Positions 29,376 through 53,772 of a stretch of DNA of 53,772 bases are shown here, one piece after another. The stretch is from Sphingomonas sp. Lineage in GTDB: Bacteria > Pseudomonadota > Alphaproteobacteria > Sphingomonadales > Sphingomonadaceae. A model generated the notes under the pieces. The model ran no database searches, was not told the origin of the DNA, and worked only from the letters and a program-made list of their open reading frames with translations. A program made the translations under genes and the position numbers. Position 1 is the stretch's first letter. The number at the start of each line of letters is the position of its first letter. The stretch lies in assembly GCA_019747165.1 (NCBI GenBank), contig JAIERC010000220.1:1-53772 (forward strand). The letters are read 5' to 3'.

Positions 29376-29559
29376 TGCGACAGGTTTCCAGAAATGGAAA
29401 TAATAGGGAACCCGGAAAGCCGATAATTTATCTGCAAGCCGGGGCTGTGCCCGCAACTGTGACCGGAGAGCGGTCGCTCCATATGCCACTGGCGGCCTTG
29501 GCTGCTGGGAAGGCGGAGCGGACGTGATGACCCGGGAGCCAGGAGACCTGCCTGTCGCA
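29376..29559 (+). promoter_or_regulatory. Cobalamin riboswitch
   Basis: P1 TGCGACAGG / CCTGTCGCA, AATAGGGAA, GCCCGCAACTGT, GCCACTG, GGGAAGG, B12 box GAGCCAGGAGACCTGCC; upstream of btuB. Confidence 0.95.
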
Positions 29560-29719
29560 GTCGGTCCTTTGTGCCAACGGGGTGTTTGGCATGATCGGGG
29601 GGAAACCTCGCGTGACGACATCGTTGGAGGTGGCGCGCGTGAGGGTTCGGACCGTTTCGCTCTACAAAAGTCCGTGCCGTTGGCGCGTGCAACCTCGCTT
29701 TGTTCAACAAGGAGGTTCC

Positions 29720-35798: not shown

Positions 35799-36721
35799 AC
35801 GATCGGGCCGCCCAGCTCATGGCCGCGCTCATGATAGAGGCAGTGATTGGCTATCCGGCTTGGCTGTTTGCCGCAATCGGACATCCCGTAACCTGGACAG
35901 GCGGCTTGATCGCCGGGTTAGACGCAAATTGGAACATCGGATCGAGCGTGAGGCGCAGGGCAATGGGGATCGCAGCCGTTAGCGTCATTGTTGCCGCATC
36001 CGGCGGCTTTGGCTGGGCTATCACGGCTGCAGTCGGGGACGGGTGGTCGGTGATCTTGCTTGTCCTCGTTGCGACCACCGCGCTGGCCCAGCGCAGCCTT
36101 CACGATCATGTCGCCGCAGTCGCGCGGCCCCTTGCTGCCGCAGACCTGCCCGCCGCCCGGGTCGCGGTATCGACCATCGTCGGACGCGATACGCAGGCCC
36201 TAAACGAGAATGACGTTAGCGTTGCGGCGATCGAAGGCCTGGCCGAAAGCTTTTGCGATGGCGTCATTGCGCCTGCCTTCTGGTTCTTCATTGCCGGATT
36301 GCCCGGATTGCTGGTCTGCAAGGCGATCAATACGGCCGATTCGATGATCGGGCATCGCGATACACGCTACCGCGACTTCGGTTGGGCCGCTGCGCGTGCG
36401 GATGATCTGGTGATGCTGGTGCCGGCACGCCTTTCGGGGATGCTGCTCGCGGCTGCCGGGCGCGGCGGGCTGGCGGTGATGTGGCGCGATGCCGGCAAGC
36501 ATGCCTCCCCCAATGGCGGCTGGCCCGAGGCGGCGATGGCAGGCGTGCTGCGGCGGCGGCTCGGCGGCCCGGTAAGCTATGAGGGCGAGCCGAGCGACCG
36601 TGCCTGGCTTGGCGATGGCCCCGCGCCCGACGCTGCCGATCTGGCAAAGGCGCTGGTGATTTATCGCCATGCTTGCCTGCTGCTCTGGGTCATTGTCGGG
36701 GGCATCGCATGGCTGTGGTGA
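35795..36721 (+). CDS. cbiB: Adenosylcobinamide-phosphate synthase
   Basis: [47 protein letters not shown]. Confidence 0.92.
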
Positions 36722-38169
36722 TGCTGCAGGGCACCGGCTCGGATGTCGGCAAATCGGTGCTGGTCGCCGGGCTCTGCCGCCTGTTCGCCAATCGCGGCCG
36801 TAAAGTCCTGCCGTTCAAGCCACAAAATATGTCCAACAATGCCGCCGTCACCGAGGAGGGCGGCGAAATTGGCCGCGCCCAGGCACTTCAGGCGCTTGCC
36901 TGTCGTGTCCCGCCAAGCACTGATATGAACCCGGTGTTGATCAAGCCGCAATCTGACACTGGCGCACAAATCGTCGTCCATGGCCGCGTCATCGGCCAAT
37001 GGGGTGCGGGCGATTATCAGGAGCGAAAGGGCGTGCTGCTCGACGCTGTGATGGCGAGCTATAGCCGTCTGCGCGAGCGTGCCGACCTTGTGATAGTCGA
37101 GGGTGCCGGTAGCCCAGCGGAGATCAATCTTCGGCGCGGCGACATTGCCAATATGGGTTTCGCGCGCGCGGCTGGAGTGCCGGTAGTCCTTGTTGGTGAC
37201 ATCGATCGCGGCGGCATTATCGCCTCGATCGTGGGGACCAAGGCGGTCATCGATCCGGATGACGCCGCGATGATCAAGGGCTTTTTGATCAACAAGTTTC
37301 GCGGTGACCCGCGCCTGTTCGACGATGGCTATGCCGAAATCGCGCGGCGCACTGGCTGGCCGGGACTGGGCGTGGTGCCATGGATTGCCGCCGCACGGCA
37401 GCTGCCCGCCGAGGATGCGGTGGTGCTCGATACGACTGCGGCGCACGACGGCGGGGTGACTATTGCCGTGCCCCTGCTTTCACGCATTGCCAATTTCGAT
37501 GATTTTGATCCGCTGATTCAAGAGCCCGCCGTCCGGCTGGTCTTCGTGCCGCCCGGCCAGCCGATCCCGGCGGAGGCCGCGCTGATCATCCTGCCAGGGA
37601 CCAAGGCGACCATCGCCGATCTCGCTTTCCTGCGGGCACAAGGGTGGGATATCGATATTGCCGCGCACGTCCGACGCGGCGGACACCTGCTTGGGATTTG
37701 TGGTGGCTATCAGATGCTGGGCGCGCATATTTCAGATGCAGACGGCATTGAAGGCCCGGCGCAACGCGTCGCCGGGCTCGGCCACCTCCCCATCGAAACC
37801 CGCCTTACCGGGGACAAGCGCCTGACCGCGACCAAAGGCACGAGCATCGCTGATAACGCCTGCTTTTCCGGTTATGAAATCCATGTTGGCCGTACTACTG
37901 TCTCGCCGGGTACGGCGCCGCTTTTACGGTTGACCAATGGCACAACGGATGGCGCGGTCAGTGCTAATGGCCGCATTGCTGGGTGCTACATCCACGGTCT
38001 TTTCGATGACCCGGCGCAGCGCGCGGCATGGCTCAAGCGGATCGGCGTCGCGTCAGACGGCGTGGCGCAATCCGTTCGCGTCGATGCCGCACTTGATGCG
38101 CTGGCGTTAGCGCTCGAGGCGCATGTCGACATCGAACGGTTACAGGCAATCGCAGGGATAGACGCATGA
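36709..38169 (+). CDS. cobQ: Cobyric acid synthase
   Basis: [51 protein letters not shown]. Confidence 0.95.
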
Positions 38170-39173
38170 TCGACATCGCTACCGCCTGGGCGCATCTGGA
38201 TGCACTTGCCAAGCCGCAGCGCAGCCTTGGCCGACTGGAAGCACTCGCGGCGCGTTTGGCGGTCGTCCAGCAGCGGCTAGACCCTGAGACCAAACCGCGG
38301 GCGATCACGCTTTTTGCCGCTGATCACGGGGTCGTGGCGCAAGGCGTTTCGGCCTGGCCATCGGCGGTGACTGGGCTGATGATGGGCACAATCATCAGCG
38401 GACGGGCAAGCAGTGCGGCGTTGGCAACCGCGCAAGGTTGCACGCTGCGGCTCGTCGATGTCGGCGCACTTGCGCCGCCGCCCGAACCATGGCCCGATCA
38501 TTTTCGCCTAGCCGCTGTCGCGTCGGGTACGGCCGACTTGTCGCAAGGGCCAGCGATGACGATCGACCAGTTCGACCGTGCATGGGCCATCGGCGCCGAA
38601 GAGGCCGAGCGCGCTCTTGCGGCGGGCAATCATATCCTGCTCACAGGCGAGATGGGGATTGGCAACACCACGCCAGCCGCTTGCCTGACTGCCCTGCTGA
38701 CCGGCATTGCGGTCGATGTTGCGGTCGGGCGCGGGGCCGGGGCGGACGATACGGTGCTCGCTATCAAGCGACAGATCGTTGCCGATGCCGTCGCCCGCGC
38801 CAACGCCGTGCTGCCGCACGATCCGCGGGCGGCGATCGCGGCTGTTGCAGGGTTCGAGATTGTCGCCATGGCGGGTTTCTTTGCGGCTGGTGCCGCCGCG
38901 GGTGCGACTTTGCTGCTTGATGGGTATGTTGCCACCGCAGGCGCACTGATCGCAGAACGCCTTGTGCCCGGCACCGCGAAACAGATCATCGCCGCCCACC
39001 GTTCTGCAGAACCGGGTCATGGCGCAGCGCTCGTCCATCTCGGGCTCGAACCGCTGCTCGATTGGGAAATGCGGCTGGGCGAAGGCACTGGGGCGCTGGT
39101 CGCGTTGCCGCTGCTCGACAGCGCCGCCGCTCTCCTGCGCAACGTCGCGCGGTTGGCGGATCTCGGCGTCTAA
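38166..39173 (+). CDS. cobT: Nicotinate-nucleotide--dimethylbenzimidazole phosphoribosyltransferase
   Basis: [34 protein letters not shown]. Confidence 0.94.
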
Positions 39174-39967
39174 TGGCTGGTCGCTGTCCATCCTGGGCAC
39201 CCCCCTTGTTGGCGGTGCAGTTTCTTACCCGACTCCCCGTGCCCGCGACCGACCGGCTCTCAGCGGACGCCGTGCGCACCGGGCTGACGCGCGCGGTTGG
39301 GTGGTTTCCGCTCGTCGGCGCGCTGATCGGCGCGGTCACGGCAACATCGGTAATTGGCGCCATGGCGATCTGGCCGGTGCCCGTTGCGGTCATGCTTGCG
39401 CTGGCCATCGAAGCGCTGTTGACGGGCGCTTTTCACGAAGATGCGGTTGCCGACTTTTGCGATGCATTTGGCGGCGGCCAGACGGCAGAAGACGTGCGCC
39501 GAATCATGAAGGACAGCCGCATCGGCAGCTATGGCACGGTCGGGCTGGTGTTGGCTCTTGGCCTGCGCGCGACATTGATGGTCACTGTGCTCGAGCGCTT
39601 CGATCCGCTTTCGGCGGCTCTTGTCATCACAGCATCGGCCTGTTTCGGACGCTGGCTGATTGTCGCCCTGATGGTCAGTGTGAACCCGGCACCGAGTGGC
39701 ACTGGCCTTACCAAGGACATTACCGCAGGCGCGGGCTTGCGCAGCTTGGCTTTGGCATCTCTGCTCGCCCTGCCGGTCCTCATTCCCTTCGCCCTTCATG
39801 CACCGCTTGCAATGATCGGGATCCTGGCGGTCAGCTTGGCTTTCCTGCTGTGGTTTCGTGCCTTCCTTCTCCGCCGGATTGGCGGGAGTACGGGCGACTG
39901 CCTCGGCTTCGCGGCCTATGTCGGTCAACTTCTGCTGCTCCTGGCGGCGGCAGCGGTCGCGCCATGA
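39173..39967 (+). CDS. cobS: Cobalamin synthase
   Basis: QFLTRLP, TGAFHEDAVADFCD, IMKDSRIGSYG, IGGSTGDCLG. Confidence 0.93.
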   Translation: MAGRCPSWAPPLLAVQFLTRLPVPATDRLSADAVRTGLTRAVGWFPLVGALIGAVTATSVIGAMAIWPVPVAVMLALAIEALLTGAFHEDAVADFCDAFGGGQTAEDVRRIMKDSRIGSYGTVGLVLALGLRATLMVTVLERFDPLSAALVITASACFGRWLIVALMVSVNPAPSGTGLTKDITAGAGLRSLALASLLALPVLIPFALHAPLAMIGILAVSLAFLLWFRAFLLRRIGGSTGDCLGFAAYVGQLLLLLAAAAVAP

Positions 39968-40524
39968 CTGCCGCACTCCTGATGGTGCGCCACACAGCGG
40001 TCGCGCGACACTGGAAAGGACGCTGCTATGGGGTAAGCGATGTTGGCCTATCCCGCGCTGGCGCTGCGCATGCCCGAGCGCTCGCACCGATATTTGCGGC
40101 ATGGCGTCCTGACATAGTGATCCATTCCGATCTGCGTCGAACGCGCATGCTCGCGCTTCAGGTTGCCGCGATCGCAAAGGTTGACGCTGTTGCCGACGCC
40201 AGTTGGCGAGAGCGGGATTTCGGCGATTGGGAAGGAAAGAGCTGGCTGGCAATTTACCGCAGCACCGGCAATGCCATGGACGGGATGATCACTGCGCCCG
40301 ACAGTTTTCGCCCGGGCGGCGGCGAGACAACGACGGAACTGGCAGACCGCATATCGGATGCTATCGCCCGATTGACCGCGCAGCGTATCGTCATCGTCAC
40401 TCATGGCGGGCCGATTGCAGCAGCCCAAGGAAGATCAGCCGGCCTGCCCGAACGTGCCTGGTTGGCGCTGGTGCCGCGTAATGGTGAAACCTGGGAGCGG
40501 CCCGCAAACGCAAGTTCTTGTTGA
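39964..40524 (+). CDS. cobC: Histidine phosphatase, probable adenosylcobalamin-phosphate/alpha-ribazole phosphatase
   Basis: VRHT, SDLRRT, ERDFGDWEG, VTHGG; last gene of the cob operon. Confidence 0.8.
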   Translation: MTAALLMVRHTAVARHWKGRCYGVSDVGLSRAGAAHARALAPIFAAWRPDIVIHSDLRRTRMLALQVAAIAKVDAVADASWRERDFGDWEGKSWLAIYRSTGNAMDGMITAPDSFRPGGGETTTELADRISDAIARLTAQRIVIVTHGGPIAAAQGRSAGLPERAWLALVPRNGETWERPANASSC

Positions 40525-40558: not shown

Positions 40559-41194
40559 GGTGTTGTCAGTCTACAGTGAACTCGTCTCCGTGAGCTGCAC
40601 CCTGTTTGTGGTCCCGTGTCCGACCTCCGGCTTCTGGGTATTGCAGAGCATCTTCATCGCCGCTTTGTACGATGCTGGGCCATCGCTGACGATCGTCTCA
40701 GGAGAGCCGTTGCGCTTCAGCGCCTTCTTCATGAAGCGCAAAGCTGCCTCCTTGTCGCGGGTCTTGGTGATGTAGCTTTCGAGGATCTCGCCGTCCTGAT
40801 CAACCGCGCGCCAGAGATCGACCCATGCGCCATTCAGGTTGGCTTCGCCGCCCTTCGGGTCACGTACATCTCGTCCAGGTGCCATCGCCAATGGCGAAAC
40901 CCGCGCATCCGACTGATTCTTGGCCGCTGAATGTCGCCAGCGAACATTGGCCCAAACCGGTTCCACCACATCCGCACGGTCTCATGACACAGGTCGATGC
41001 CGCGCTCGAAAAGCAGATCCTTGACGTTCCGCAGCGATAGCGGGAACCGCACATGCATCAGCACCACAAGCCGGATCACCTCCGGCGACGAGTTGAAACA
41101 GCGAAAAGGGGAGGGAGGTCTGGCTCTGGATTTCCGGCTCATTAGCGCCCGCTAGCAGTCCCGTCGCTGACTGCCACATTGGTTTGACAGCGCC
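40559..41194 (-). mobile_element. IS6-family element, internally deleted and frameshifted
   Basis: IRs GGTGTTGTCAG / TTGACAGCGCC; RFPLSLRNV, WHLDEMYV, LWRAVD, IVSDG. Confidence 0.88.
40841..40860 (-). repeat. 20-bp double mini-hairpin insert, copy A
   Basis: GGCTTCGCCGCCCTTCGGGT between DEMYV and NLNG codons of the IS6 transposase. Confidence 0.9.
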
Positions 41195-41389: not shown

Positions 41390-42709
41390 ATGGGCGATAA
41401 TCAGGATATTGCTGCGCCACCGTCGCTGCGTCAGGATCTCGATGGCCCGGTGGATGCCGGGTTCGTTTATGCCAATCTCCGGCGCAACACAGTCGCTAAC
41501 TTTGCCCATGGCATGCTGGGGATGACCGGATTTCGGCTGATTGCGGCGCCAACCTTCGTGCCCAGCTACATCTTCATGCTGACGGGGTCGAGCTTTGCGG
41601 TCGGACTGGCGCAGGCCGTCCAGCAGGCGGGTTCGGTGATCTCGCCGATGCGCAGCGCCAGCGCGATCGAGGACAAGCTCCTCATCATGCCCTATGCCCG
41701 CCGTACCGGGATCGCGATGCGGATGCCGCTGGCGGTAATCGCGCTGACCGGTTGGTTCCTAGGCGGCCATTCGTCGATGAACTGGCTGCTGGCGGCAATC
41801 ACCATCGCTGCCTTATTTGTTTTTGGCTATTTCTCCGGCGCGCAACGGGTTGCGTTCCAAATGTTGATGGCCAAGGTGATCCCTTTGAAATTGCGCGGCC
41901 GGTTGCAAGGCTGGCGCAATTTCTGTGGCGGTGCCATCGCCGCTCTTTTGAGCTGGTGGGCCGGATCCACGCTGATTGAGCACAATGTTCTCGGTAACGG
42001 GTACGCCACGACATTTGCGATCAGTTTCGTGCTGACCAGCCTGGGCCTGACGATTCTGGTGCTGATGCTTCGCGAACCTGAAAGCCGGTTGCGCCGGCCA
42101 ACAATGTTGCTGCGCCACCGGCTACGCGAATTGCCCAAGCTCCTCGAAAACAGAGACTACCAGGAATTTCTGCGTGCTCAGCTGGTGGCGATGATTGGGC
42201 GCACGGCGATCGCCTTTTGCATCCTTTATGCAGGTGGCAGGATGCACCTGACGGGAGCGACATTGGGGTTTCTTAGTTTTGCGTTCCTCGGTGCCGACAC
42301 GGTGTCAAACGTGGCCTGGGGAGCAATTGGTGACCGTCGCGGGTTCCGGATCGTGCTGCTATTGGCGCTCTCGCTGTGGGTCGTTGGCTATGCGATGATA
42401 TTGGCGGCAACCAGCCTTGCAGGGTTCATCGCCGCATTTGCGGCCCTTGGCGCGGCCATCAGCGGGTACACGATCGCCGCACAGACGTTGGTGCTTGAGT
42501 TCGGACGGCATGAGGACATCCCGATGCGGCTGGCGCTTTCGGCCACGGTTGAAACCAGTGTCGCCTCGATTGGCCCGCTCATCGGTGGGGCAGTTGCCGC
42601 GCTGATCGGCTTTCGTCCGCTGATCGAATTTTCGATGGCGGTAATGGTGATGGCGGTAATCATCGTCTGGTGGCGCGTGGGCGAACCCCGTCAGTTCCCA
42701 GCAAAATAG
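41390..42709 (+). CDS. MFS transporter
   Basis: Multiple hydrophobic helices, WGAIGDRRGFR loop motif. Confidence 0.85.
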   Translation: MGDNQDIAAPPSLRQDLDGPVDAGFVYANLRRNTVANFAHGMLGMTGFRLIAAPTFVPSYIFMLTGSSFAVGLAQAVQQAGSVISPMRSASAIEDKLLIMPYARRTGIAMRMPLAVIALTGWFLGGHSSMNWLLAAITIAALFVFGYFSGAQRVAFQMLMAKVIPLKLRGRLQGWRNFCGGAIAALLSWWAGSTLIEHNVLGNGYATTFAISFVLTSLGLTILVLMLREPESRLRRPTMLLRHRLRELPKLLENRDYQEFLRAQLVAMIGRTAIAFCILYAGGRMHLTGATLGFLSFAFLGADTVSNVAWGAIGDRRGFRIVLLLALSLWVVGYAMILAATSLAGFIAAFAALGAAISGYTIAAQTLVLEFGRHEDIPMRLALSATVETSVASIGPLIGGAVAALIGFRPLIEFSMAVMVMAVIIVWWRVGEPRQFPAK

Positions 42710-42951
42710 CCAGAATTGGCTCGCTTTTCAGCTGATTTCTGGTTTCGAAATTCAGATTTTTGGACGATCCGACTGTGGATTGGTGTTCAACGTGAAACGC
42801 TATCAATGTCTTCCTAGACATTGATAGAGAAGGATTTTTACTGGCATCCAATCGTAAAATGGGCGCCGCTTGGGACCCGGCACGCCAAAACTGATTGCGA
42901 AAGGCGCATGCTGGCGTCGACTAAGCCTGATCTTCGTTATTTCTCGCCAGA

Positions 42952-45774
42952 TTATTGTGTTCCGGCGTTTGTCAGTGTGCTGCTTAGCATCTCTTCACGG
43001 CCCTGACGCAAATCAGCCCCGCTGCGGGTGCGCGGCTCCGGTCCGGTGCCCAGCCCGCGCCACAAGGCCGAGTTGAACGCTGCGGTGTCCAGCGTGTCTT
43101 CGGTACGAAAATTCTGGCCCTTCATCGCCGCCGCCCAATAAGCGGCGGTATGTGGTGGGCGGATCGCGGCGACTTTGGGGACAACGAATCGGTCAGCGGT
43201 GATCGGGAGTTGCGTGCTGCGCAGCACCTCTGCGGCGACCGCGCGGTAATCCCAGCTTGTCTGATTGAGGTCGAAGATATCGGCCATTGGCGCGGCCATG
43301 GCGTCATTCAGCCCCAGGGGTTCGATCCCCAGCACCCCCTCGATTGTGCGCAACATGCTGACCGTTGTGTACCGGGTCGATACCAAAGCGCGTTGGCGGA
43401 CATAGGGTCCGACGACAAAGGCAATGCTGCGACGGGCATCGACATGGTCGGTGCCGTTTTGGGCATCATCCTCAATCACAAAGACCAAGGTTGAATCCTT
43501 GAACTTGCTCTGTGCGATCCGCTCAACGACCATGCCGACCGAATAATCATTGTCGGCCATCTGCGTTTCGACGGTGTTCACGCCGTCAACGCCCTCGGCA
43601 AAATCGCCGAAATGGTCGTGTGACAGGCGCAGCAAAGTCAATGCGGGCATCGCATCTGCAGCTTCCTGCTGTGCAAATTCGCGCTCCCATTCGAGAACGC
43701 GCCAGTAATCGGGCAGTTTTTGGTCAAAACCCCGGAAATAGGGGTCGCTGCGATCGGCAAGCGCGATCGATGCCGGGGTGTAGATTCGCCTACCTTCCTT
43801 GAAGGGATCGCGGATCACCGGCACGGCGCCAGGGTCCTTGCTGTCATAAACCGACGCATCGGCAAAGCCATAGTTGCGCACGCTGAGGCCAGCACGCAGC
43901 GCCGCGTCCCACAAGAAACCCTGACCGGGTTCATTGTCGCTGTCGCCATCGGGAGCGGTCAGCAAGGCGTGGCCAGGCAGAATATCATCGTCATCGGGGA
44001 TCGCGGGATTTGCCATTCGCCGAGCTTCTTTGCTCAGGCTGGTCGCCACATTGCGATCGAGCTGTTCGGCCTCATAGGCAAGGCCGCGCTGCGCATAATT
44101 TACCGGGGCGGTCTTTTCTAACAGGTCGGGCACCCGCCCCGCCGTCGTCCAGGTCCATCCGGTGCTCGATTGCTCCCCGCTGTCATAGAAATTGTCGAGC
44201 GTCACGAAATTTGTCGCCAGCGCGTGATGGTTGGGTGCCAGTGCTGCGCCCAATATGGCCAGTTTGGGATCACCATTGCCGACAGGCAAGTCACCCAGCA
44301 CCTGATCATAAGTGCGGTTTTCCTTGACGATAAAAATGACGTGTTTGATGCGCTCGCGCACCGCGGCCATCGTTGCATCCGCAGCAGCGCGTGCTGCATC
44401 ATTGTCGAGACCGATATTCTTTGCCACTTGTCGCGTGGTGCTGGCCAACGCCGCCGTGCCCGGCATCGGGAAGTGCAGCAGCCCGGCCTTTTCCAACTGG
44501 AAGATATATTGGTTTGCCGCCCCGCAAGCGGTGGGCTGCGCCTTTACAACGGCCAGTTTGGGCGCACAGCCAAGCGGATTGGGACCGGGCACGCTTTTGC
44601 GGTTAACAACAAAAACCCGGCTGCCATCGGCACTTGTCGCGACTGCAGACGGATACCAGCCGGTTGGCACCAACCCATCAACGCGCGCACCCTTTGCCAT
44701 GGGCGTCACCATCGCAACGGCATTCACGCCGCCATAGGTGACAAGCAGCCGATGATTGGGGGTCATCGCCAAGCCGTTGGGGTTCAGCCCCTTGGGCAAC
44801 GTGCCCGCATCAATGGCATCGGGCAGGCCCAGGCGCGGTTCAGCGATCAGCCGGTCGGTCACGGTGTTGATCATCGCCAGCCGGTCAGCATTGTCCTCGG
44901 TGGCATAAAGACGCTTTGATACGGGATCGATCAGCAGCGCCGTCGGCTCACCGATCGTGGCGATACGGTGGACGACGGCCATCCGGTCCGCGCCCACGCT
45001 CAGCTTCACAATTTGGCGGTCGCGCGGGGCTGAAACATAAGCGCTGTTTGCCCCTGCCCAAATGACCGCAAAGGGAAACTCACCGCCCGCAACGCCTTTC
45101 GCCGCGGGATCGATCTTGCCTGGGCGCAAATCCTGTTCGGCGATCACCCGTTTGCCGTCGAGATCAACCAGGCTGATTGAGTCGTTATAATAATTTGCAA
45201 CCAGGGCGCGGTGGCCATCCGGGCTGACCGCGACCCCGGCCGCTTGCGGCTTTACATCGGCGCCATTGCCCGCCTTGTGACCCAGCTTGATCGCAGGTGT
45301 GCTCTCCGTAAAGCCCGCCGCGCCGCGGGCGAAAACATGGACGTTATCGTCCACCCCGCCACCGACGATGAATCCTTGGCCGTTGGGTGTCCAGGCAATG
45401 CCCGAATAGCTGTTGGGTATCATCAGCGTTTGATCGAGCGTGCTGCCCTTCGCGTCGATGCGGTAAACGAAAATATATTGTTGCGATTGAAGCAGGCTGA
45501 TCGTGCCCTTGGCATCATTGACGCGGTTGAAGCCGCTGGTGAGCACCAACATGCGCGTTTTGTCTGGGCTGACCGCGATTGCGGCGGCGCCGTCTGCAAC
45601 ATAATCGGGGATTGGTCCGGCATGCGCGACGAGCGGCTCAAAATGTGCGCCAGGTGCAGCGAGCGGGGTCAATGCCTGACCGGTCGGCAGGTGCTGGGGC
45701 GCGTCGGAAGCGGCGGCCGCGCTGGTGCCAAGCAGGCTGAACGCCGATGCGCCGATGAAGATGGCGATTTTCAC
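42952..45774 (-). CDS. Secreted YncE/YVTN beta-propeller + phosphoesterase (alkaline phosphatase superfamily) protein
   Basis: Signal peptide VKIAIF..AAAA; propeller repeats VAVSPDG, VPTGWYP; IKHVIFIVKENRTYDQVLGD, EDDAQNGTDHVDARRS. Confidence 0.87.
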   Translation of the reverse strand: MKIAIFIGASAFSLLGTSAAAASDAPQHLPTGQALTPLAAPGAHFEPLVAHAGPIPDYVADGAAAIAVSPDKTRMLVLTSGFNRVNDAKGTISLLQSQQYIFVYRIDAKGSTLDQTLMIPNSYSGIAWTPNGQGFIVGGGVDDNVHVFARGAAGFTESTPAIKLGHKAGNGADVKPQAAGVAVSPDGHRALVANYYNDSISLVDLDGKRVIAEQDLRPGKIDPAAKGVAGGEFPFAVIWAGANSAYVSAPRDRQIVKLSVGADRMAVVHRIATIGEPTALLIDPVSKRLYATEDNADRLAMINTVTDRLIAEPRLGLPDAIDAGTLPKGLNPNGLAMTPNHRLLVTYGGVNAVAMVTPMAKGARVDGLVPTGWYPSAVATSADGSRVFVVNRKSVPGPNPLGCAPKLAVVKAQPTACGAANQYIFQLEKAGLLHFPMPGTAALASTTRQVAKNIGLDNDAARAAADATMAAVRERIKHVIFIVKENRTYDQVLGDLPVGNGDPKLAILGAALAPNHHALATNFVTLDNFYDSGEQSSTGWTWTTAGRVPDLLEKTAPVNYAQRGLAYEAEQLDRNVATSLSKEARRMANPAIPDDDDILPGHALLTAPDGDSDNEPGQGFLWDAALRAGLSVRNYGFADASVYDSKDPGAVPVIRDPFKEGRRIYTPASIALADRSDPYFRGFDQKLPDYWRVLEWEREFAQQEAADAMPALTLLRLSHDHFGDFAEGVDGVNTVETQMADNDYSVGMVVERIAQSKFKDSTLVFVIEDDAQNGTDHVDARRSIAFVVGPYVRQRALVSTRYTTVSMLRTIEGVLGIEPLGLNDAMAAPMADIFDLNQTSWDYRAVAAEVLRSTQLPITADRFVVPKVAAIRPPHTAAYWAAAMKGQNFRTEDTLDTAAFNSALWRGLGTGPEPRTRSGADLRQGREEMLSSTLTNAGTQ

Positions 45775-46230
45775 TGCAACGGCTCCCCAGACTTTTGAGC
45801 AACAGGACTTATCACTGCGACGATGTCGATTACATGACAAAAGATCGCGCCGCCCAGCAGGGCATCTTCCTGCACCCCAAAGATCGGGGCATTTGCGCTG
45901 CCCGTGCACTTGGCTGCGTCCCAAGAAAAGCAGCATCGTGACCGGTTGGGGGGCGCCGTATGGCCACATTTCCCCATCGCTTTGATCGTCCGGAATGGCG
46001 TTACGCAAACCAAGGGCCCTTACCTCGCGGACATCGCCCTCGCCCTCGCGGTGAACACCATCGTGGCGCGAAGGATTGCATTGCGCTTTGGCTGTTCCCC
46101 CCGATCGTCGCTCACTCAATGCTGTCCATCTTTTCTCGGTTCACTGTCCGTTGAAAAGAAGTTGCTCTGCGACCGGCGTGGTTTCAGGCAAATAGCAATA
46201 TGCCCAGACCGGCTGGGATTGCGAAGACTA

Positions 46231-49200
46231 TTAGGGGAACCCCACAACTCGCGTCGGCGCGCCCTGATAGCGGGTGCCGGCGTTCAAGGCCTCGGCCTTC
46301 ATGATCACGCTTCCCGCGCCGACATGGGCATCCTTGCCGACCACCGCTCCGTATAGCGGCACCGTGCCCGCGCAAACCGTCGAGCCGGCCTCAAATTTTA
46401 CCGGGCCGACCTTCAGGACGCGGTCTTCGAATGTGTGGGCTTGGTAGCTGGCGCAGGCGGTGGCGTGGTCGCCTACTTCGATCATGTCGGGATCGACGAC
46501 CTGGCTGAATTGCGGGCCTAGCACCGCGCGTTTGCCGATCTTGAGGCCCATCAGGCGCAAATATGGAGGCAGGAGGAACGTGCCCTCGAGCCAGTCGAGT
46601 GGGACGCGGGCGAGCTTTTGCCAGCACACATAGAAATAGTCCCAGCGGCTACACCAGCACGACCACAGCGCGTGCTGCGCGGGTTTGACGCGGCCAATCA
46701 GGCACCATTTGATCACGATGACAGAGAGCGCGGAGAGCATGATTGGGGTGAGCGTGGCGAGGGGGAGGACGACGAGGGCGAACGTTACGCTGCTGGTTGT
46801 TGCCTCGCCGCGCGCGATCAGGCCGTACCACAGTGTACCGAGCAGCAGCGGCGGGATCGGCAGCAGAAAGCGCGCGGTCTCCCACATCACGCGGTTCACA
46901 TAGCGGAGCGTCGAGGGCTTGTGTGTCAGGCTGATGTCGCTCGCCATTTCGACCACTTCGCGGCGGGGGAGGTCGAAGCTGGGGTGACCGAAGCGGGCAT
47001 GGCCGCTGGTGATTTTCGTGTCATCGGCCACGGTACAGACGCCAATCAGGATGTCGTCGGGCAGGTGCGATCCGGCGGGGATGACCGCATGGTTCCCGAG
47101 GAAGGTGTGGCGGCCGAGACTGGTCTGGGCGAGCGTAACCGTGCCTTGCCGGACCTTTGCGCCGCCGAGGTAGATGCCGTCGGCGAAGAAGGTTTCTTCG
47201 CCGATCGTGACCAGTTCGGGCACCACGTCGATGATCGTGCTGATTTCGCAATCGCGGCCCAGATCCATGCCCGCCAGTCGCAACCAGTGCGGCCAGTAGA
47301 GCGTGCCCGAAAGCCATTGACCACTGGCGGTGAGCATCGCGCTCTTCATCCAGACGCGCAAGTACGCGCTACTCCAGCGGGGGATTGTACCGGGGCGGAC
47401 GCGCCCCAAAGCGCGCATCATCAGCGCCGAGGCGACTAACGTAAGCGGGGTGGTAAGGACGGTGACACCCAGGATCACCGCCGCCACGCGGGAGGCGAAA
47501 TCGGGCGCGTAGAACCAACGCCACAGCATGTTGGGGGCAATATCCGCCGCGTGCGCGGCGCCGATCAGTATCGCCTCGGTGGGGAGAGCGACCACAAGCG
47601 CAAGCAGGGCTTCAGCGCCGAGCAGCCGCGCGCCATAGCCGAACGGGGTGAGCGTGGCGGCCGGTCGGGTGATCGCGGGGAGCGGCGGAACGGGGCCGAT
47701 CGAACGCGCGGGCACGCCGTCCCAAACTTCGCCCGCCGACACGTGCATCCCTGGGTTGAGTGCCGAAAGCGCGGTGACCACGCTGCCCGCGCCTATGGTC
47801 ACATCGCCGCAGACGATGGCGCGTGATTCAAGGCTCGCTCGGGCCTCCAGCGTGATCGGCCCGACCACGATATCGCCGCGATCGAGTTCGACGAGGCTCA
47901 ACACGCAATCCTGCGCTATCGCCACATCATCGCCTAATGTCAGCAAGTCCCACCCACCGCGGCGCAAATCCACGCCGCGGTGGATGTGAACGCGGTCACC
48001 GATCTGCGCGCCGAGCGCGCGCAGGGCCACGATCTGCAAGGCGCTGCCCTGGATCAGCGGCCATGGCACCACCCGCGCGGCGAGCAGGACGAGCCAGTGA
48101 CGCAAGTAATATGCGCTCCACACCGGCGCACGGATCGGGCGGTAGGTACCGATCACCAGCCGCTTGACTGCGACCGCGAACAGGATTGATCCGGGAATAT
48201 AGGCGGCCAACGCCAGCGCGGTGATGATCGGGAACAGCACGATCATCTCGCTAAGGCTGAAGCGCGCGAACAGCGCCGGGATCAGCTTGAATGCGGCGAG
48301 GTAACCACCCCACGAAGCGACAGTAACCACCGCCCAAAGCGCGGGTAATTGCACGCAGTTGGCGAGCAGCACATTGGCCTTGCCGTGGCGGACCAGCGGG
48401 GCTTCATCCTCGTCCTCGCTGGTGCCGCCGCCCGCTGCGATTAGTTCGGCTAATGCGCGGATCGTGCGTGCTTCGTAGATGTCGCTAACGGTGACGCGCA
48501 CGGTTTCGGGGTGATCGCGCAACAGCGTGACCAGCATCGCCGCACGCAAGGAATCGCCGCCGAGGCCCTCGAAAAAATCCTCCACCACCGAGGGCGGGGC
48601 GGCGCGCGCCAGAACATCGGCGGCGGCATCAGCGATCAAGGTCTCGAGAGCGCCCTCAGGGGCGACGGCCTCGCCGGTCTCGGGTTCCGTGCCGATGTTG
48701 AGCACGGGCAGCAGTCGGCGGTCGAGCTTGCCCGCCACGCTCACCGGCAGCGCGTCGATCAGCCCGATCCGCTGCGGCACCATGTAATGCGGCAGCGTCT
48801 CGGTCAGCGTGGCGCGCAAACCTTCGGTGTCGGGCGGCGAGGCGGGATCGCTCGGCACGACATGCGCGACCAGTGCGGCGCCGCCCGGGCGATCTTGCAT
48901 CGTCACCGCTGCCGCGCGCACCCCAGGCAGGGCAGCCAGCCGCGCCTCAATCTCGCCCAGTTCAACCCGGTAGCCGCGGATCTTGACCTGTGCGTCGATG
49001 CGACCGTGGTAGTGTAATTCGCCGCTGACGGGATCCAGGTGCACCAAATCGCCGGTGCGGTAAACGCGACCATAGCGCGGGTGATCAACGAACTTTTCGG
49101 CGGTTAGTTCGGGCCGGTTGCGGTAGCCGCGCGCCAGACCGACGCCCGCCATGCACAATTCGCCGTGGGTCCCGCTCGGCACTTCAGCCAGCGCATCATC

Positions 49201-50241
49201 GAGCACCAGCGCGGTCATGCCCGGCACCGCCCGCCCGATCGTAACCGGTGCGTCCGGCGTCACGTCGCCGCGCACGCAGGTCACTGCGCATTCGGTTGGG
49301 CCGTAACCGTTGACCATGCGCTTTGCCTTCGACCATGTCGCTGCGACGTCGTCGGGCAGTGCCTCTCCGCCAACGTAAAGCAGCCTGAGATCGGGCAGTT
49401 CGCGCTGTGGGTCCGTGCACCCGGTGGCGCGCAGCAACGTCGGCGGCGGAGTCAGCGCAGTCGCGCGTTCGCTGCGCAGCCAGCCGACCAGATCGGGGCC
49501 AAGCCGGGCCGTGGCATCGTCCATCGCCAGCAGCGTCGCACCGCTGGCCAGTGCCATCCAAATCTCCTCGACCGAGCTGTCGTAAGCGGGCGAGGAACCC
49601 TGCACCACGCGGTCGCCCGGGCCGAGGCCGAAAAACCGCGTATCGCCCGCAACCAGATTGGCGATCGCGCGATGCTCGATCATCACGCCCTTTGGCTTGC
49701 CGGTCGTACCCGAAGTATAGATCACATAAGCTAGGCTGTCGGGCCGGATGTCGGCCGGGCAGGGCGCGCGGTCAGGGCTTTTGGCGAAGACCGCGATATC
49801 GTGGACCAGTCCTTCCGATAGGCCGATCAAACGCAATTGCGCAGCACCTTCAGCATCGCTGAGCACCAGCGGGCTGGCGGCATCTTCGATCACCTCGCGC
49901 TTGCGCGCGTCGGGGAAGGCCGGATCGAGGCAGGTATAAGCCGCACCCGAGCGTTGCACCGCCAGTTGCGCGATCCACAGCCACACCGTCCCGCGCGACA
50001 GCAGCAGCGCCACGATTGGCTCGTCGAGCCCCGCGATCCGCGCAGCGATCCGCTCGGCCAACGCCTGCACGCGCGCGTCGAGCTCGGCGTAAGTCAACGT
50101 CTGCCGATCGGGCCGCCCACGCCCCGGCGGCACGTCGATCGCCAACGCGTGCGGATGCCGCGCCACGCTGGCAGCGAGGACTTGCGGCAGCAGCGGGTGC
50201 GCGGCTTCGCGGGCCTCCTGGTCGAGGGCAATGGTGGCCAT
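46231..50241 (-). CDS. Pls/PosA-like single-module membrane NRPS (A-T plus three TM/hexapeptide-repeat terminal domains)
   Basis: YVIYTSGTTGKPKG, NGYGPTE, YRTGDL, GRIDAQVKIRGYRVELGEIE; T domain DFFEGLGGDSL; three blocks with W.R..G..IG motifs and TM pairs; no C or TE domain. Confidence 0.9.
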   Translation of the reverse strand: MATIALDQEAREAAHPLLPQVLAASVARHPHALAIDVPPGRGRPDRQTLTYAELDARVQALAERIAARIAGLDEPIVALLLSRGTVWLWIAQLAVQRSGAAYTCLDPAFPDARKREVIEDAASPLVLSDAEGAAQLRLIGLSEGLVHDIAVFAKSPDRAPCPADIRPDSLAYVIYTSGTTGKPKGVMIEHRAIANLVAGDTRFFGLGPGDRVVQGSSPAYDSSVEEIWMALASGATLLAMDDATARLGPDLVGWLRSERATALTPPPTLLRATGCTDPQRELPDLRLLYVGGEALPDDVAATWSKAKRMVNGYGPTECAVTCVRGDVTPDAPVTIGRAVPGMTALVLDDALAEVPSGTHGELCMAGVGLARGYRNRPELTAEKFVDHPRYGRVYRTGDLVHLDPVSGELHYHGRIDAQVKIRGYRVELGEIEARLAALPGVRAAAVTMQDRPGGAALVAHVVPSDPASPPDTEGLRATLTETLPHYMVPQRIGLIDALPVSVAGKLDRRLLPVLNIGTEPETGEAVAPEGALETLIADAAADVLARAAPPSVVEDFFEGLGGDSLRAAMLVTLLRDHPETVRVTVSDIYEARTIRALAELIAAGGGTSEDEDEAPLVRHGKANVLLANCVQLPALWAVVTVASWGGYLAAFKLIPALFARFSLSEMIVLFPIITALALAAYIPGSILFAVAVKRLVIGTYRPIRAPVWSAYYLRHWLVLLAARVVPWPLIQGSALQIVALRALGAQIGDRVHIHRGVDLRRGGWDLLTLGDDVAIAQDCVLSLVELDRGDIVVGPITLEARASLESRAIVCGDVTIGAGSVVTALSALNPGMHVSAGEVWDGVPARSIGPVPPLPAITRPAATLTPFGYGARLLGAEALLALVVALPTEAILIGAAHAADIAPNMLWRWFYAPDFASRVAAVILGVTVLTTPLTLVASALMMRALGRVRPGTIPRWSSAYLRVWMKSAMLTASGQWLSGTLYWPHWLRLAGMDLGRDCEISTIIDVVPELVTIGEETFFADGIYLGGAKVRQGTVTLAQTSLGRHTFLGNHAVIPAGSHLPDDILIGVCTVADDTKITSGHARFGHPSFDLPRREVVEMASDISLTHKPSTLRYVNRVMWETARFLLPIPPLLLGTLWYGLIARGEATTSSVTFALVVLPLATLTPIMLSALSVIVIKWCLIGRVKPAQHALWSCWCSRWDYFYVCWQKLARVPLDWLEGTFLLPPYLRLMGLKIGKRAVLGPQFSQVVDPDMIEVGDHATACASYQAHTFEDRVLKVGPVKFEAGSTVCAGTVPLYGAVVGKDAHVGAGSVIMKAEALNAGTRYQGAPTRVVGFP

Positions 50242-50358
50242 GCGGCAAAAGTCCAAGTTCATCGGCCGCCGCTCTGCCGCGCCCTGCCGATCCGATCATG
50301 CCCGTTGTCATAGCGCTGCCACTCGCCCGGTCAATCACGGGCATGATCCCGCGCGCTT

Positions 50359-50790
50359 GGTGCTGTCAGTGCGATGCAAACCCGTCTCAACACGATGCAG
50401 ATCGGGCTTTGAGGGCGACGTTCAGCTGGCAAGCGACTGCCACTCGGTCAGTGCGGCTGAGCGGCGCTTCTTGAAGGTTTGGCGATCGACGATGTGGCCT
50501 TTAAAACTGGCCTGAAGGGCGGCGAAGCCAATTAATTATAGACATTAGAGTGCCAGCGCTAATTTCGAAAACCCCGCATCCCGCCGATACAGCGTTACAG
50601 TCCCTCGCTCTCGACCGTCGGGCCAACGCGATTCTACCGGAAGCTTATGGTCTGATGGCTCAAATCGATTCCGCGCTCGAACAGCAAATCCTTGATGTTT
50701 CGCACCGACAGCGGAAATCGCACGTTCATCATGCCGACCAGCCGGATGACTTCGAGTGGCGAGCCGAAGCACTGGAAAAGGCCAGTGCGC
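50359..50790 (-). mobile_element. IS6-family remnant, heavily degraded with central deletion
   Basis: IR GGTGCTGTCAG at 50359; 50359-50545 parallels 52738-52925; 50546-50790 parallels the IS6 5' part. Confidence 0.8.
50510..50529 (+). repeat. 20-bp double mini-hairpin insert, copy B (2 substitutions)
   Basis: GCCTGAAGGGCGGCGAAGCC at the same transposase site as copy C. Confidence 0.8.
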
Positions 50791-50791
50791 C

Positions 50792-52663
50792 TCAATAAGC
50801 CAATGCACAGCCGTCAGCACGCATCTCGCTCGCCGCTGCATAGACCCTTGTATCGCCGTCCATCCGGCGCTCGACGCATTCGTAGCGACCGAACCCACCG
50901 TCCGGCTCGCCGATCGTCCAACCAAGCTCTGCTAAGCGCTGCTGCGTGGCAAGCGGCACCCCTGATTCTAATCGCAGTAACCCGCGCGGACCAAGGCCCG
51001 ACGCATCCTCCCCCATCGACTGGGACGATCCCTCGTGATGCCAGCGCGGTGAATCACCCGCCGACTGGATTTCCAGGCCGTAATCGACACGGTTCGCAAT
51101 AATCTGCGTTTGGCCTTGAGGCTGCATGTCGCCGCCCATCACGCCAAAGCTCATCCACGGATCGACGCCACGTGTCGCAAAGCCCGGGATAATCGTTTGG
51201 AACGGTCGCTTGCCGGGGGCGTAGATATTGGGATGCCCGTCCTGGAGACTGAAAAGCTGCCCGCGATCCTGAAACATGAAGCCCAAGCCGTCTGCGACAA
51301 GACCTGATCCCATACCACGAAAGTTCGACTGGATCATCGACACCATCATGCCATCCTTGTCGGCGCAACTGAAATATGTGGTGTCGCCATGGCTTGGGGC
51401 TTGCCCAGGATAGACTGGGTCGAGGATGCGGTCGAGCCGGATCAATTTCGCACGCTCTTTCGCATAGTCTTTAGAAATCAGCCATTCGACCGGCACCTTG
51501 CTGAAATGCGGGTCGGCGTAAAAGCGCGCACGATCCTCATACGCAAGTCGCTTTGCCTCTGCCTGAAGATGGATCGACAAAGGGGATTGGAAACCTGCGC
51601 CGCCGAGATCGAACGTCTCCAATATGTTGAGCATTTGGAGCGTCGCAATCCCTTGCGTATTCGCGCCGAGCGCCAGAACATCCACGCCCCGATAGTTTGT
51701 TTTGTGCGGCTCGATCCATTCTGATCGATGTGCCGCCAAATCCTCGGCCCGCAGCCAGCCGCCGATCCGCTTGAAGTATCGATCGATCACCTGCGCAATG
51801 TCGCCCCGGTAGAACGCATCGCACCCGCCCGCCGCGATCGCTCGATAGGTGCGGGCTAAATCAGGATTGCGGAATACCTGCCCTGCCGCAGGGCCTTTGC
51901 CGTCCGAGAGGCCGTAGGTCTTGAGCGCGTTGGTGGTTTCCTCGATGCCGCTGCCCGGCTTGCGGAACGCGGCCATGCTTTGTCGGATATAATGGGCTAT
52001 GATGTCGGGCACTGGCGCACCAGCTTCGGCATGGGCAATCGCGGGCGCGAACAATTCAGCCCATGGCAGTCGACCGTGTCGTTTGTGCATGGTCCACCAT
52101 GCATCGACCGCGCCGGGCACGGACACCGCCACGGCACCGAGAGGCGGCAATGCGCCGCCGCGCGCACGGGAACGGACTATGTCTAGGCTGAGGCCCATCG
52201 GCGACGCGCCTGACCCGGCCAATCCCTCGACCTTGCGCTGCTTTGGGTCCCAGATCATCGCATAGGCATCACCGCCAATGCCGCATGCTGTCGGTTCCAG
52301 AAAACCCAGACAGGCGTTGATGGCGATCGCTGCATCCACTGCGGACCCGCCACGGCGAAGGATGTCGATCCCTGCCTGTGTCGCTAGGGGATGCGCAGTA
52401 CCCGCTGCCCCGTTCAATCCATATGCGGCCGTTCGGGACGCGAAGCTGGCGCCAACTGGTCGGTTGCCGGCGCTGACGTCGGGTCGGAGAAAACGGTCTT
52501 CGCCGGTGGTCCAGCGATGAGGCAGCCCGGAAACGCCGGTCGGGGAGGCTGCAGCCGCCCCTGGACCCTGCAGTTGAGGGCCGGTCTGAGGAGATTGTGC
52601 CAACGACATTCCGGGTATGAGCGCCGCACCCGGCAGCGTGGCAAGAAATGTACGACGATGCAT
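50792..52663 (-). CDS. ggt: Gamma-glutamyltransferase-family Ntn hydrolase with Tat signal
   Basis: MHRRTFL Tat motif; GGSAVDAAIA, GIGGD, VSVPGAV, nucleophile GDTTYF, PGKRPFQTI, GVMGGDMQPQG. Confidence 0.9.
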   Translation of the reverse strand: MHRRTFLATLPGAALIPGMSLAQSPQTGPQLQGPGAAAASPTGVSGLPHRWTTGEDRFLRPDVSAGNRPVGASFASRTAAYGLNGAAGTAHPLATQAGIDILRRGGSAVDAAIAINACLGFLEPTACGIGGDAYAMIWDPKQRKVEGLAGSGASPMGLSLDIVRSRARGGALPPLGAVAVSVPGAVDAWWTMHKRHGRLPWAELFAPAIAHAEAGAPVPDIIAHYIRQSMAAFRKPGSGIEETTNALKTYGLSDGKGPAAGQVFRNPDLARTYRAIAAGGCDAFYRGDIAQVIDRYFKRIGGWLRAEDLAAHRSEWIEPHKTNYRGVDVLALGANTQGIATLQMLNILETFDLGGAGFQSPLSIHLQAEAKRLAYEDRARFYADPHFSKVPVEWLISKDYAKERAKLIRLDRILDPVYPGQAPSHGDTTYFSCADKDGMMVSMIQSNFRGMGSGLVADGLGFMFQDRGQLFSLQDGHPNIYAPGKRPFQTIIPGFATRGVDPWMSFGVMGGDMQPQGQTQIIANRVDYGLEIQSAGDSPRWHHEGSSQSMGEDASGLGPRGLLRLESGVPLATQQRLAELGWTIGEPDGGFGRYECVERRMDGDTRVYAAASEMRADGCALAY

Positions 52664-52888
52664 GATGGAGGCCCCCGCTGCAGCAAAGCGATCTTTGCGC
52701 TCCGCGCCCGCTTCCGCAAGAGGGTACAAGGATGATCGGTGCTGTCAGTCTTGTGCGAACTCGTCTCTCGACGATGCAGATCGGGCTTTGAGGGCGACGT
52801 TCGGCTGGCGAACGACTGCTACTCGGCCAGTGCGGTTGAGCGGCGTTGCCTGAAGGTTTGGCGATCGACGATGTGGCGTTCAAGATTG

Positions 52889-52908
52889 ACCCGAAGGGCG
52901 GCGAAGCC
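52889..52908 (+). repeat. 20-bp double mini-hairpin insert, copy C
   Basis: ACCCGAAGGGCGGCGAAGCC splits the Phe codon of HNQ-F-NLERH, antisense to the transposase. Confidence 0.9.
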
Positions 52909-53261
52909 AACTGATTATGGACGGTGGCGTGGACCGAGGCGAACTTTTGCAGCGTCTTCATTCGCCTGAACCGGAGCATCGCGCGCTCGCTTCGTCGGAA
53001 GGGAAGGTGACTGTTCTCGACCCGATTGTTCGCCCATCGGCCAATCTCGTGACGATCCAGATTCCCCAATTCGCGCATGGCGGCGGGGTAGGATTTTAGC
53101 CCGTCAGTGACGATCGTTTCAGCCTGCCCATAGCGCTTCAGCGCCTTCTTCATGAAGGCGAGTGCCGCTGATTTATCCCGCTTTTTCGTGACGTAGCTCT
53201 CGAGGATTTCGCCTTCGTGATCGACGGCCCGCCAGAGGTAAACCATCTCCCCATTCAGGTT

Positions 53262-53281
53262 GGCTTCGCCGCCCTTCGGGT
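53262..53281 (-). repeat. 20-bp double mini-hairpin insert, copy D
   Basis: Identical to copy A, same site (DEMCV^NLNGE). Confidence 0.9.
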
Positions 53282-53697
53282 CACGCACATCTCGTCCAGG
53301 TGCCAACGTCGATGACGAGACCCGCGCATCCGACTGATCCGTTGCCGCCTGATGTCGCAAGCGAACATTGGCCCAAACTGATTCCACCACATCCGAACGG
53401 TTTCATGACACAGGTCGATCCCGCGCTCGAATAGCATGTCCGCGACATTTCGCAGCGACAGCGGGAAGCGCACATACATCATCACCACCAGCCGGATCAC
53501 TTCGGGCACGAGATGAAACAGCGAAAAGGCGAGGGAGGCTTAGCTCTCGATTTGCGGCTCATTCGCGTCCGCTATCAGCACCGCCAGCCGACTGCCACAT
53601 TGGTCTGACAGCGCCTTTGCAGCGTCAGGTTTTTTGGGGAGCGATTATGGGAACAATCCCCAAGGAAGTAATTTTATCTAATAAAATCAATGGCAGA

Positions 53698-53772
53698 TGG
53701 CGGAGCGGGAGGGATTCGAACCCTCGATACGCTTTTGACGTATACTCACTTTCCAGGCGAGCGCCTTCGACC
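53698..53772 (-). tRNA. tRNA-Ser(GGA), 5' end cut by window edge
   Basis: Reverse strand: CTCGC-CTGGAAA-GTGAG anticodon arm, long variable arm ATACG..CGTAT, GAGGG-TTCGAAT-CCCTC, CCA. Confidence 0.95.

What the first reader, a model, noticed from the sequence alone, without database searches (positions are those of the whole stretch)
46231..52663. Pls-like membrane NRPS next to a Tat-exported GGT: candidate poly(amino acid) synthesis and anchoring/turnover system
Seen: co-oriented ggt then NRPS, separated only by an IS6 remnant and about 120 bp. The NRPS has A-T and three TM-linked terminal domains, no C or TE; its A4 region reads AYDSSVEEIW. Established: this architecture is that of epsilon-poly-L-lysine synthetase, which makes isopeptide homopolymers in actinomycetes; the GGT-family enzyme CapD anchors and cleaves the poly-gamma-glutamate capsule of B. 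anthracis. Inference: an alphaproteobacterial polyamide of unknown monomer with a periplasmic transpeptidase/depolymerase. No PPTase is in the window, and the IS may have uncoupled or merely juxtaposed the genes.
Basis: partly seen in the sequence, partly recalled or inferred. Interest (0 to 1): 0.72.

Follow-up and report, generated by a model that had tools for sequence, protein, structure and literature searches.

The report
Polylysine-type synthetase; neighbouring GGT is coincidental
An intact membrane enzyme of the polylysine-synthetase family likely strings a bulky positively charged amino acid (best guess S-methylmethionine, untested) into a polymer nobody has yet isolated, while the neighbouring gamma-glutamyltransferase gene was likely dropped next to it by insertion elements and is not its partner.

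Summary
In detail: an intact Pls/PosA-type synthetase (A-T plus six predicted TM helices and three beta-helices; 46231-50262) lies behind an IS6 remnant and a Tat-signal ggt (50792-52663). The proposed CapD-like coupling is not supported. No GGT occurs in 179 Pls-family loci. In the 17 genus genomes with both genes they are never adjacent. IS6 pieces bracket ggt, and homology with the closest relative ends 14 bp before the IS. The GGT resembles the lid-loop-less 2NLZ clade, not CapD. The synthetase pocket (DSETYGGVTK) matches 9 of 10 positions of the uncharacterised Bdellovibrionales homologue that weakly activates Arg and no known diamino acid. The recurring partner of this branch is a small SET methyltransferase (13 of 13 copies adjacent in Pseudonocardiaceae); the scan found this pair before on other DNA. 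New here: that SET's closest solved structure is BurB, which makes S-methylmethionine. My leading monomer guess is therefore S-methylmethionine (about 0.3), ahead of Arg and N-methyl-lysine. The cognate SET was not found in this genome (72% complete) or in most sphingomonads carrying the synthetase, which weakens the guess.

The parts
46231..50262 (-). Pls/PosA-family single-module membrane NRPS, 1343 aa (start may be Met8 at 50241)
   Evidence: dN/dS 0.13 against L084
48727..50172 (-). Adenylation domain (aa 31-512); pocket D228 S229 E232 T271 Y296 G298 G319 V327 T328 K512
   Evidence: (alignment to PosA 8G97 and Pls 7WEW)
48439..48636 (-). Thiolation (PCP) domain, aa 543-608, GGDSL with Ser571
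46255..48300 (-). Terminal polymerising domain (TIGR02353): three predicted TM-helix pairs and three beta-helices
50263..50345 (-). Upstream stretch shared with the closest relative L084; homology ends 14 bp before the IS6 end
50359..50781 (.). IS6 remnant: one terminal repeat plus an internally deleted transposase fragment; no second terminal repeat found
50792..52663 (-). GGT-family N-terminal-nucleophile hydrolase, 623 aa, predicted Tat signal, nucleophile Thr428, no lid loop; unrelated passenger gene (inferred)
52738..53615 (.). IS6 copy with both terminal repeats and a split transposase
40559..41194 (.). Third IS6 copy, same orientation, internally deleted; bounds the MFS-phosphoesterase-NRPS block
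53701..53772 (-). Partial tRNA gene at the contig end, a possible island integration site (inferred)

Best explanation
The window encodes an intact Pls/PosA-family membrane synthetase that likely activates one bulky cationic amino acid (best guess S-methyl-L-methionine, untested) and would chain it into a cationic homopolymer, while the adjacent ggt is a likely unrelated periplasmic hydrolase gene placed there by IS6 elements. Steps: (1) Shown: A-T-terminal-domain architecture, intact catalytic motifs, purifying selection. (2) Shown: the pocket keeps Asp (alpha-amine) and Glu (side-chain cation), has Gly where PosA has Thr304, and carries Tyr at position 5; it matches Bdello_A at 9 of 10 positions. 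(3) Inferred: the substrate is a cation with few hydrogen-bond partners. (4) Shown for other members of the branch: the dedicated partner is a small SET methyltransferase whose profile is closest to BurB. Inferred: it makes S-methylmethionine (SMM) from Met. (5) Inferred: sphingomonads without that SET take SMM up or make it by another enzyme. (6) Inferred from Pls/PosA: the terminal domain polymerises the T-bound monomer at the membrane; with SMM the links would be alpha-peptide bonds. Monomer odds: SMM 0.3, Arg 0.2, N-methyl-lysine 0.2, other 0.3. Odds that ggt is unrelated: about 0.9.
For: GGT unlinked: 0 hits with two GGT queries in 179 Pls-family loci, 2.58 Mb; 32 of the 44 loci of this branch had at least 2.9 kb upstream. 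The window GGT query finds the orthologue in 4 of 4 control loci. ggt orthologues occur in 58 of 400 genus genomes, Pls-like genes in 62 of 400. Of the 17 with both, 7 have them at least 265 kb apart on one contig and 10 on different contigs. DNA homology with L084 stops at 50345 and ggt homology is confined to its CDS. GC3 is 0.80 for the NRPS and 0.66 for ggt. Pocket; 109 of 120 top homologues read DSECYGGVT, the Bdello_A code of PMC10522769 (text parts 1-5 of 8). SET link: 14 of 44 branch loci against 0 of 134 other Pls loci; 13 of 13 copies adjacent in 12 of 201 Pseudonocardiaceae genomes, with no strong SET hit lacking the NRPS or the reverse. Same-clade SETs lie unlinked in G430, G432 and G433, and related ones in G426 and G428. 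BurB is the top PDB hit of the SET profile (E 9e-17 against 3e-12) and of the G426 SET (1.5e-10 against 2.5e-5). BurB makes SMM from Met in vitro (PMC7496086, passages).
Against: No cognate SET was found in G000 (72% complete; only a membrane-SET fusion outside that clade), in any of the 9 same-genus genomes of this branch, in 19 of 23 Novosphingobium genomes carrying the branch, or in G431. The linked SET is confined to one 16-row subclade, not the window's (quick tree). One single linked SET (L086) scores BurB level with histone methyltransferases (1.6e-7 against 1e-7), so BurB may rank first only as a small bacterial SET. All known products of the family are isopeptides of diamino acids, whereas SMM has only an alpha-amine. 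No Sfp-type PPTase was found in G000; the only PF01648 hit is AcpS-like in a pdxJ context. TIGR02353 scores below its cut-off. The GGT lacks a lid loop, and such GGTs can take polymeric substrates (PMC8062742, passages).
Confidence: 0.55

Rival explanations
1. One reading: the GGT anchors or depolymerises the NRPS polymer in the periplasm, as CapD does for poly-gamma-glutamate.
For: Co-orientation 529 bp apart, and the arrangement recurs in strain-level contigs of other runs. Tat-type leader. Lid-loop-less GGTs can accept polymers (PMC8062742 passages).
Against: 0 of 179 loci and 0 of 17 shared genomes are linked. Only 2 of 9 same-branch genus genomes carry the ggt orthologue (Fisher p 0.62). 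IS6 on both sides. CapD is a distant hit. The pocket is cation-type, not Glu-type.
Confidence: 0.06
2. The monomer is L-arginine or a similar guanidinium amino acid, available in every cell; the SET is optional tailoring in one subclade.
For: Bdello_A, with the consensus code of this branch, activates Arg modestly (PMC10522769). This explains why SET-less sphingomonads keep the gene under selection.
Against: The authors call the activity modest and suggest a larger analogue. It does not explain the 13 of 13 SET coupling. Non-alpha polymerisation of Arg is called improbable in bioRxiv 10.64898/2026.04.09.717421 (passages).
Confidence: 0.2
3. The SET is a lysine N-methyltransferase; the monomer is N-epsilon-methyl-lysine, or amines of the polymer are methylated after synthesis.
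For: SET domains typically methylate lysine. A SET tailors lysine in epichloecyclins (PMC10540207 passages), and FlvH acts on lysine in flavunoidine synthesis (PMC8902786 passage; that FlvH is a SET is recalled). Gly for Thr leaves room for a methyl. A secondary epsilon-amine keeps the isopeptide logic.
Against: The SET profile prefers BurB and shares its Q-x5-H and Y-x-[ST]-T-E motifs. A supply of methyl-lysine in SET-less genomes is unexplained.
Confidence: 0.2
4. In this genome the synthetase is an orphan: intact but silent or unprimed after IS6 cut its upstream region.
For: The IS end is 96 bp from the start. No promoter consensus upstream. No Sfp-type PPTase or cognate SET found.
Against: 83 bp of upstream DNA is shared with L084. 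The ORF is intact with dN/dS 0.13. The genome is only 72% complete.
Confidence: 0.2

Closest known systems
Bdello_A, the Bdellovibrionales CHPA-synthetase homologue (Patel and Gulick 2023, PMC10522769)
   Same: Pocket DSECYGGVTK against DSETYGGVTK here; the differing position does not touch substrate in PosA. 109 of 120 top homologues carry the exact code.
   Different: Only its A domain was assayed (modest Arg activation); no product is known. Its sequence was not compared directly here.
epsilon-poly-L-lysine synthetase Pls (Streptomyces albulus; A domain 7WEW) and delta-poly-L-ornithine synthetase PosA (Acinetobacter baumannii; 8G95-8G98)
   Same: A-T-terminal-domain architecture, six TM helices, three beta-helices, conserved Asp and Glu; top PDB hits of the pocket region.
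   Different: Positions 2, 4, 5, 7 and 9 differ from PosA (DMEHNGTVSK), and the amine-binding Thr is replaced by Gly. TIGR02353 is below its cut-off.
BurB, SET-domain methionine S-methyltransferase (PDB 9L4T; PMC7496086)
   Same: Closest solved structure of the SET family coupled to this synthetase branch, with shared motifs.
   Different: Distant similarity only, activity untested. BurB feeds DMSP synthesis, not a polymer. This SET is not encoded in the window.
Bacillus halodurans GGT-family 'cephalosporin acylase' (2NLZ) and Thermoplasma acidophilum GGT (2I3O)
   Same: Top PDB hits of the window GGT, with no lid loop.
   Different: The window enzyme has a predicted Tat leader; its substrate is unknown.
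CapD (Bacillus anthracis, 3G9K)
   Same: Same N-terminal-nucleophile GGT superfamily.
   Different: Weak hit (E 6e-28). CapD acts on poly-gamma-glutamate. No conserved link of this ggt to any polymer synthetase was found.

Membership tests
Pls/PosA (CHPA, NAPAA) synthetases | Single module A-T with no C or TE domain | tested here: met
Pls/PosA (CHPA, NAPAA) synthetases | Terminal domain of three TM pairs and three beta-helix repeats | tested here: met
   (prediction)
Pls/PosA (CHPA, NAPAA) synthetases | TIGR02353 score above the curated cut-off | tested here: not met
   382 bits against 423.1, profile covered 19-694 of 695, E 5.6e-114; a divergent branch
Pls/PosA (CHPA, NAPAA) synthetases | Asp and Glu at pocket positions 1 and 3 | tested here: met
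   D228, E232
Pls/PosA (CHPA, NAPAA) synthetases | Makes an isopeptide homopolymer of a diamino acid | not testable with these tools
   Needs assay; the pocket differs from the codes PMC10522769 prints for PosA and the beta-lysine enzyme
Bdello_A-type branch | Pocket code DSE[CT]YGGVTK and placement in that clade | tested here: met
   (42-row clade, support 100, quick tree; Bdello_A itself not in the tree)
SET + Pls two-gene unit | Small SET gene directly upstream of the synthetase | tested here: not met
   None in the window; G000 holds only an unlinked membrane-SET fusion of another clade
CapD-type polymer anchoring/depolymerising system | Conserved linkage of the GGT to the polymer synthetase | tested here: not met
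CapD-type polymer anchoring/depolymerising system | GGT closest to CapD | tested here: not met
CapD-type polymer anchoring/depolymerising system | Activity on the polymer | not testable with these tools
   bench assay needed
Lid-loop-less GGT clade (2NLZ/2I3O type) | Thr nucleophile, no lid loop, best hits in that clade | tested here: met
BurB-type methionine S-methyltransferase (branch partner, not in window) | BurB as nearest characterised relative | tested here: inconclusive
   Top hit for the profile and the G426 SET; tie for L086

The most novel reading that the evidence does not exclude
This widespread synthetase branch polymerises S-methylmethionine into a natural polysulfonium peptide. 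A BurB-like SET supplies the monomer where the two genes travel together, and sphingomonads use scavenged S-methylmethionine. That would be a new class of bacterial cationic polymer and a new sink in the organosulfur cycle.
Probability: 0.27. Interest if true: 0.85.

Novelty: new variant of a known kind. Interest (0 to 1): 0.5.

Why it matters
Patel and Gulick left open what the DSECYGGVTK branch of polylysine-type synthetases makes. The branch is common: at least 1284 homologues passed E 1e-50 (only the top 120 were typed for pocket code), and it spans several phyla. The BurB resemblance of its partner gives one cheap, specific test, S-methylmethionine activation. It is also useful to retire the GGT link, which is an insertion-element accident in one species.

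Tried and rejected
GGT linkage: none, as above; also 0 hits in 46 short-flank loci L310-L355 (weak, 1.5 kb flanks). Conserved neighbours in the sphingomonad subclade: only lineage-specific synteny, no shared partner. The membrane-SET fusion as partner: present in 181 of 400 genus genomes and 6 of 9 branch genomes, Fisher p 0.31, and closer to histone methyltransferases than to BurB; rejected. The 181 includes unpublished G169 and G337; unpublished G562 is only among the weak SET hits, and no main claim rests on these three. Promoter and terminator scan: chance level. ARAGORN tRNA-Pro at 44726-44805 lies inside an ORF and Rfam does not confirm it. Expression: no RNA holder listed. PF02574 in G000 does not tell MmuM from split MetH, so it is uninformative on SMM use. 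The beta-propeller gene upstream in L084 has no Pfam or PDB hit. Pocket geometry could not be inspected on the model; pocket residues come from alignment. The careful tree did not finish, so one search is the quick tree; 3 of the 44 branch loci with short A-domain matches were left out. The PosA supplement search gave no hits and one file was unreadable, so I could not check whether SMM or methyl-lysines were in the Bdello_A panel. Searches for a paper on a SET with a Pls-type enzyme found none; the listings showed no such title. No paper on the BurB structure was read. No complex prediction was run.
Full report
Observation. The window is one whole contig (G000:C521) of a fragmented 2.68-Mb genome, 72% complete; named relatives suggest a sphingomonad (inference). 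The NRPS at 46231-50262 (-) has A, T and TIGR02353 domains and no C or TE. TIGR02353 covers 19-694 of 695 positions but scores 382 bits, below the 423-bit cut-off. Hydropathy gives three pairs of hydrophobic segments. The AlphaFold model of the terminal 698 residues (pLDDT 91.7, pTM 0.90) shows three helix pairs with beta-helix-type regions, matching left-handed beta-helix acyltransferases, as predicted for PosA in PMC10522769 (read: text parts 1-5 of 8). The gene is under purifying selection against its closest relative L084 (dN 0.089, dS 0.68). The ggt at 50792-52663 (-) has a twin-arginine leader and Thr428 as nucleophile.

The IS context. Three IS6 copies of the same orientation lie at 40559-41194, 50359-50781 and 52738-53615, so ggt is bracketed. 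DNA homology with L084 (Novosphingobium, 81.5%) runs from 46237 to 50345 and ends 14 bp before the IS end; L084 has a divergent beta-propeller-like gene there and no ggt. Homology of ggt with 11 orthologue loci is confined to its coding region. GC3 is 0.80 for the NRPS and 0.66 for ggt. Contigs of runs X1 and X5 bridge each junction separately, and X3 the IS-ggt junction. The arrangement is therefore real at strain level, though no contig spans both junctions and one run may be the source.

Linkage test. Two GGT queries found nothing in 179 Pls-family loci (2.58 Mb); 32 of the 44 loci of this branch had at least 2.9 kb upstream. In 400 genus genomes the ggt orthologue occurs in 58 and a Pls-like gene in 62 (9 of this branch, 53 of a distant one). 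Seventeen have both: 7 at least 265 kb apart on one contig, 10 on different contigs, where adjacency across a contig break is not strictly excluded. Only 2 of the 9 branch genomes carry the ggt (p 0.62). The GGT's best solved relatives are 2NLZ (E 3e-113) and 2I3O; CapD scores 6e-28. I conclude the pairing is an IS-made accident.

The pocket. Alignment to PosA and Pls gives D228 S229 E232 T271 Y296 G298 G319 V327 T328 K512. Of 120 top homologues, 109 read DSECYGGVT and 5 DSETYGGVT. [quoted passage not shown] Position 4, where the window differs, does not contact substrate in PosA. The Glu implies a cationic side chain; Gly for Thr and a Tyr suggest a bulkier cation with few hydrogen bonds (inference).

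The real partner of the branch. Clustering of neighbours showed a small SET-domain gene (PF00856) directly upstream in 14 of 44 branch loci and in 0 of 134 other Pls loci. In 201 Pseudonocardiaceae genomes, strong SET hits (E below 1e-50) and the branch synthetase occur in the same 12 genomes, 13 copies each, every pair adjacent (G425 contributed to the SET profile, and kin are not independent). The linked form maps to one 16-row subclade spanning Actinomycetota, Armatimonadota and Spirochaetota; the window sits in a separate sphingomonad subclade (quick tree). Of the six genomes with an unlinked synthetase or no adjacent SET that I checked, three (G430, G432, G433) hold a same-clade SET elsewhere, two (G426, G428) a related one, and G431 none. 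In Novosphingobium the branch is in 23 of 151 genomes and a stand-alone SET (E at most 1e-22) in 5, of which 4 are carriers (p 0.002, kin not independent); 19 carriers have none. None of the 9 carriers in the window's genus, nor G000, has it. I found the pair before looking it up; earlier scan notes e1-4847054 and e1-9992761 report it on other DNA, and e1-717763 the Bdello_A link.

What the SET may make. The SET profile's best solved structure is BurB (9L4T, E 9e-17; next 3e-12), sharing the family's invariant Gln, His and Thr-Glu positions. The G426 SET also ranks BurB first. G000's membrane-SET ranks histone enzymes first, and L086 alone gives a tie. BurB converts Met and SAM to S-methylmethionine, and a sulfonium-accepting A domain with an acidic pocket residue is known from the same pathway (PMC7496086, passages); BurB and MmtN are listed as bacterial Met S-methyltransferases in PMC11306096 (passages). 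SMM is an alpha-amino acid with a permanent cation and no hydrogen-bond donors, which fits the pocket and would make Arg a weak mimic (inference). That SMM is an environmental metabolite that sphingomonads could take up is recalled, not tested. No earlier scan note matched these words, and paper searches for a SET with a Pls-type enzyme found none.

Caveats. The monomer is not shown. An SMM polymer would break the family's isopeptide rule. The cognate SET is mostly missing in sphingomonads. No Sfp-type PPTase was found in G000 (the PF01648 hit is AcpS-like). One PosA supplement file was unreadable, which bears on whether SMM was already tested. Counts include unpublished G169 and G337, and includes unpublished G562; no main claim rests on them.

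Verdict. The NRPS-GGT system is not real. The synthetase is a member of a known family, in a branch flagged in 2023 whose product is unknown, and the BurB lead makes that question directly testable. Interest 0.5; new variant of a known kind.

Noticed in passing
L062-L071; 53 of 400 genus genomes: A second, distant Pls branch with a PosA-like code (DMEHNGTVT in 10 of 10 loci typed), with a PPTase-like gene directly downstream in 7 of 10: likely poly-ornithine synthetases in sphingomonads. G426 carries both branches.
   Followed up: partly
G000:C498:3-1187 (L243): A membrane-domain plus SET-domain fusion of about 390 aa, with SET hits in 181 of 400 genus genomes; function unexplained.
   Followed up: partly
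L095, L097-L099, L164: A Gemmataceae/Planctomycetota sub-branch has a distinct pocket, DSE[ASC]HGDV[VT], with an extra acid residue, suggesting yet another monomer.
   Followed up: no
L117, L137, L173, L174: Methanotrichaceae and metagenome Pls homologues with code DFEGEGTIT.
   Followed up: no
window 1-71 and 53701-53772: The contig begins and ends in partial tRNA genes pointing inward, so much of it may be island DNA.
   Followed up: no
window 4526-22883: Capsule-type polysaccharide cluster: glycosyltransferases, ABC-2 export, polysaccharide export protein, FkbM and other methyltransferases, with transposase remnants and lower GC.
   Followed up: no
window 29365-40524: Cobalamin riboswitch (29365-29569) ahead of a TonB receptor, ABC uptake genes and cobinamide salvage genes (cobO, cobD, cobQ, cobT, cobS families).
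   Followed up: no
window 41390-46119: MFS gene and a beta-propeller/phosphoesterase gene share the IS6-bounded block with the NRPS but are not found beside any homologue checked.
   Followed up: partly
L103, L105, L106: In these loci the synthetase is followed by an ABC transporter and a further gene, with a peptidase MA-like hit in L103 and L106: a possible export and turnover module.
   Followed up: no
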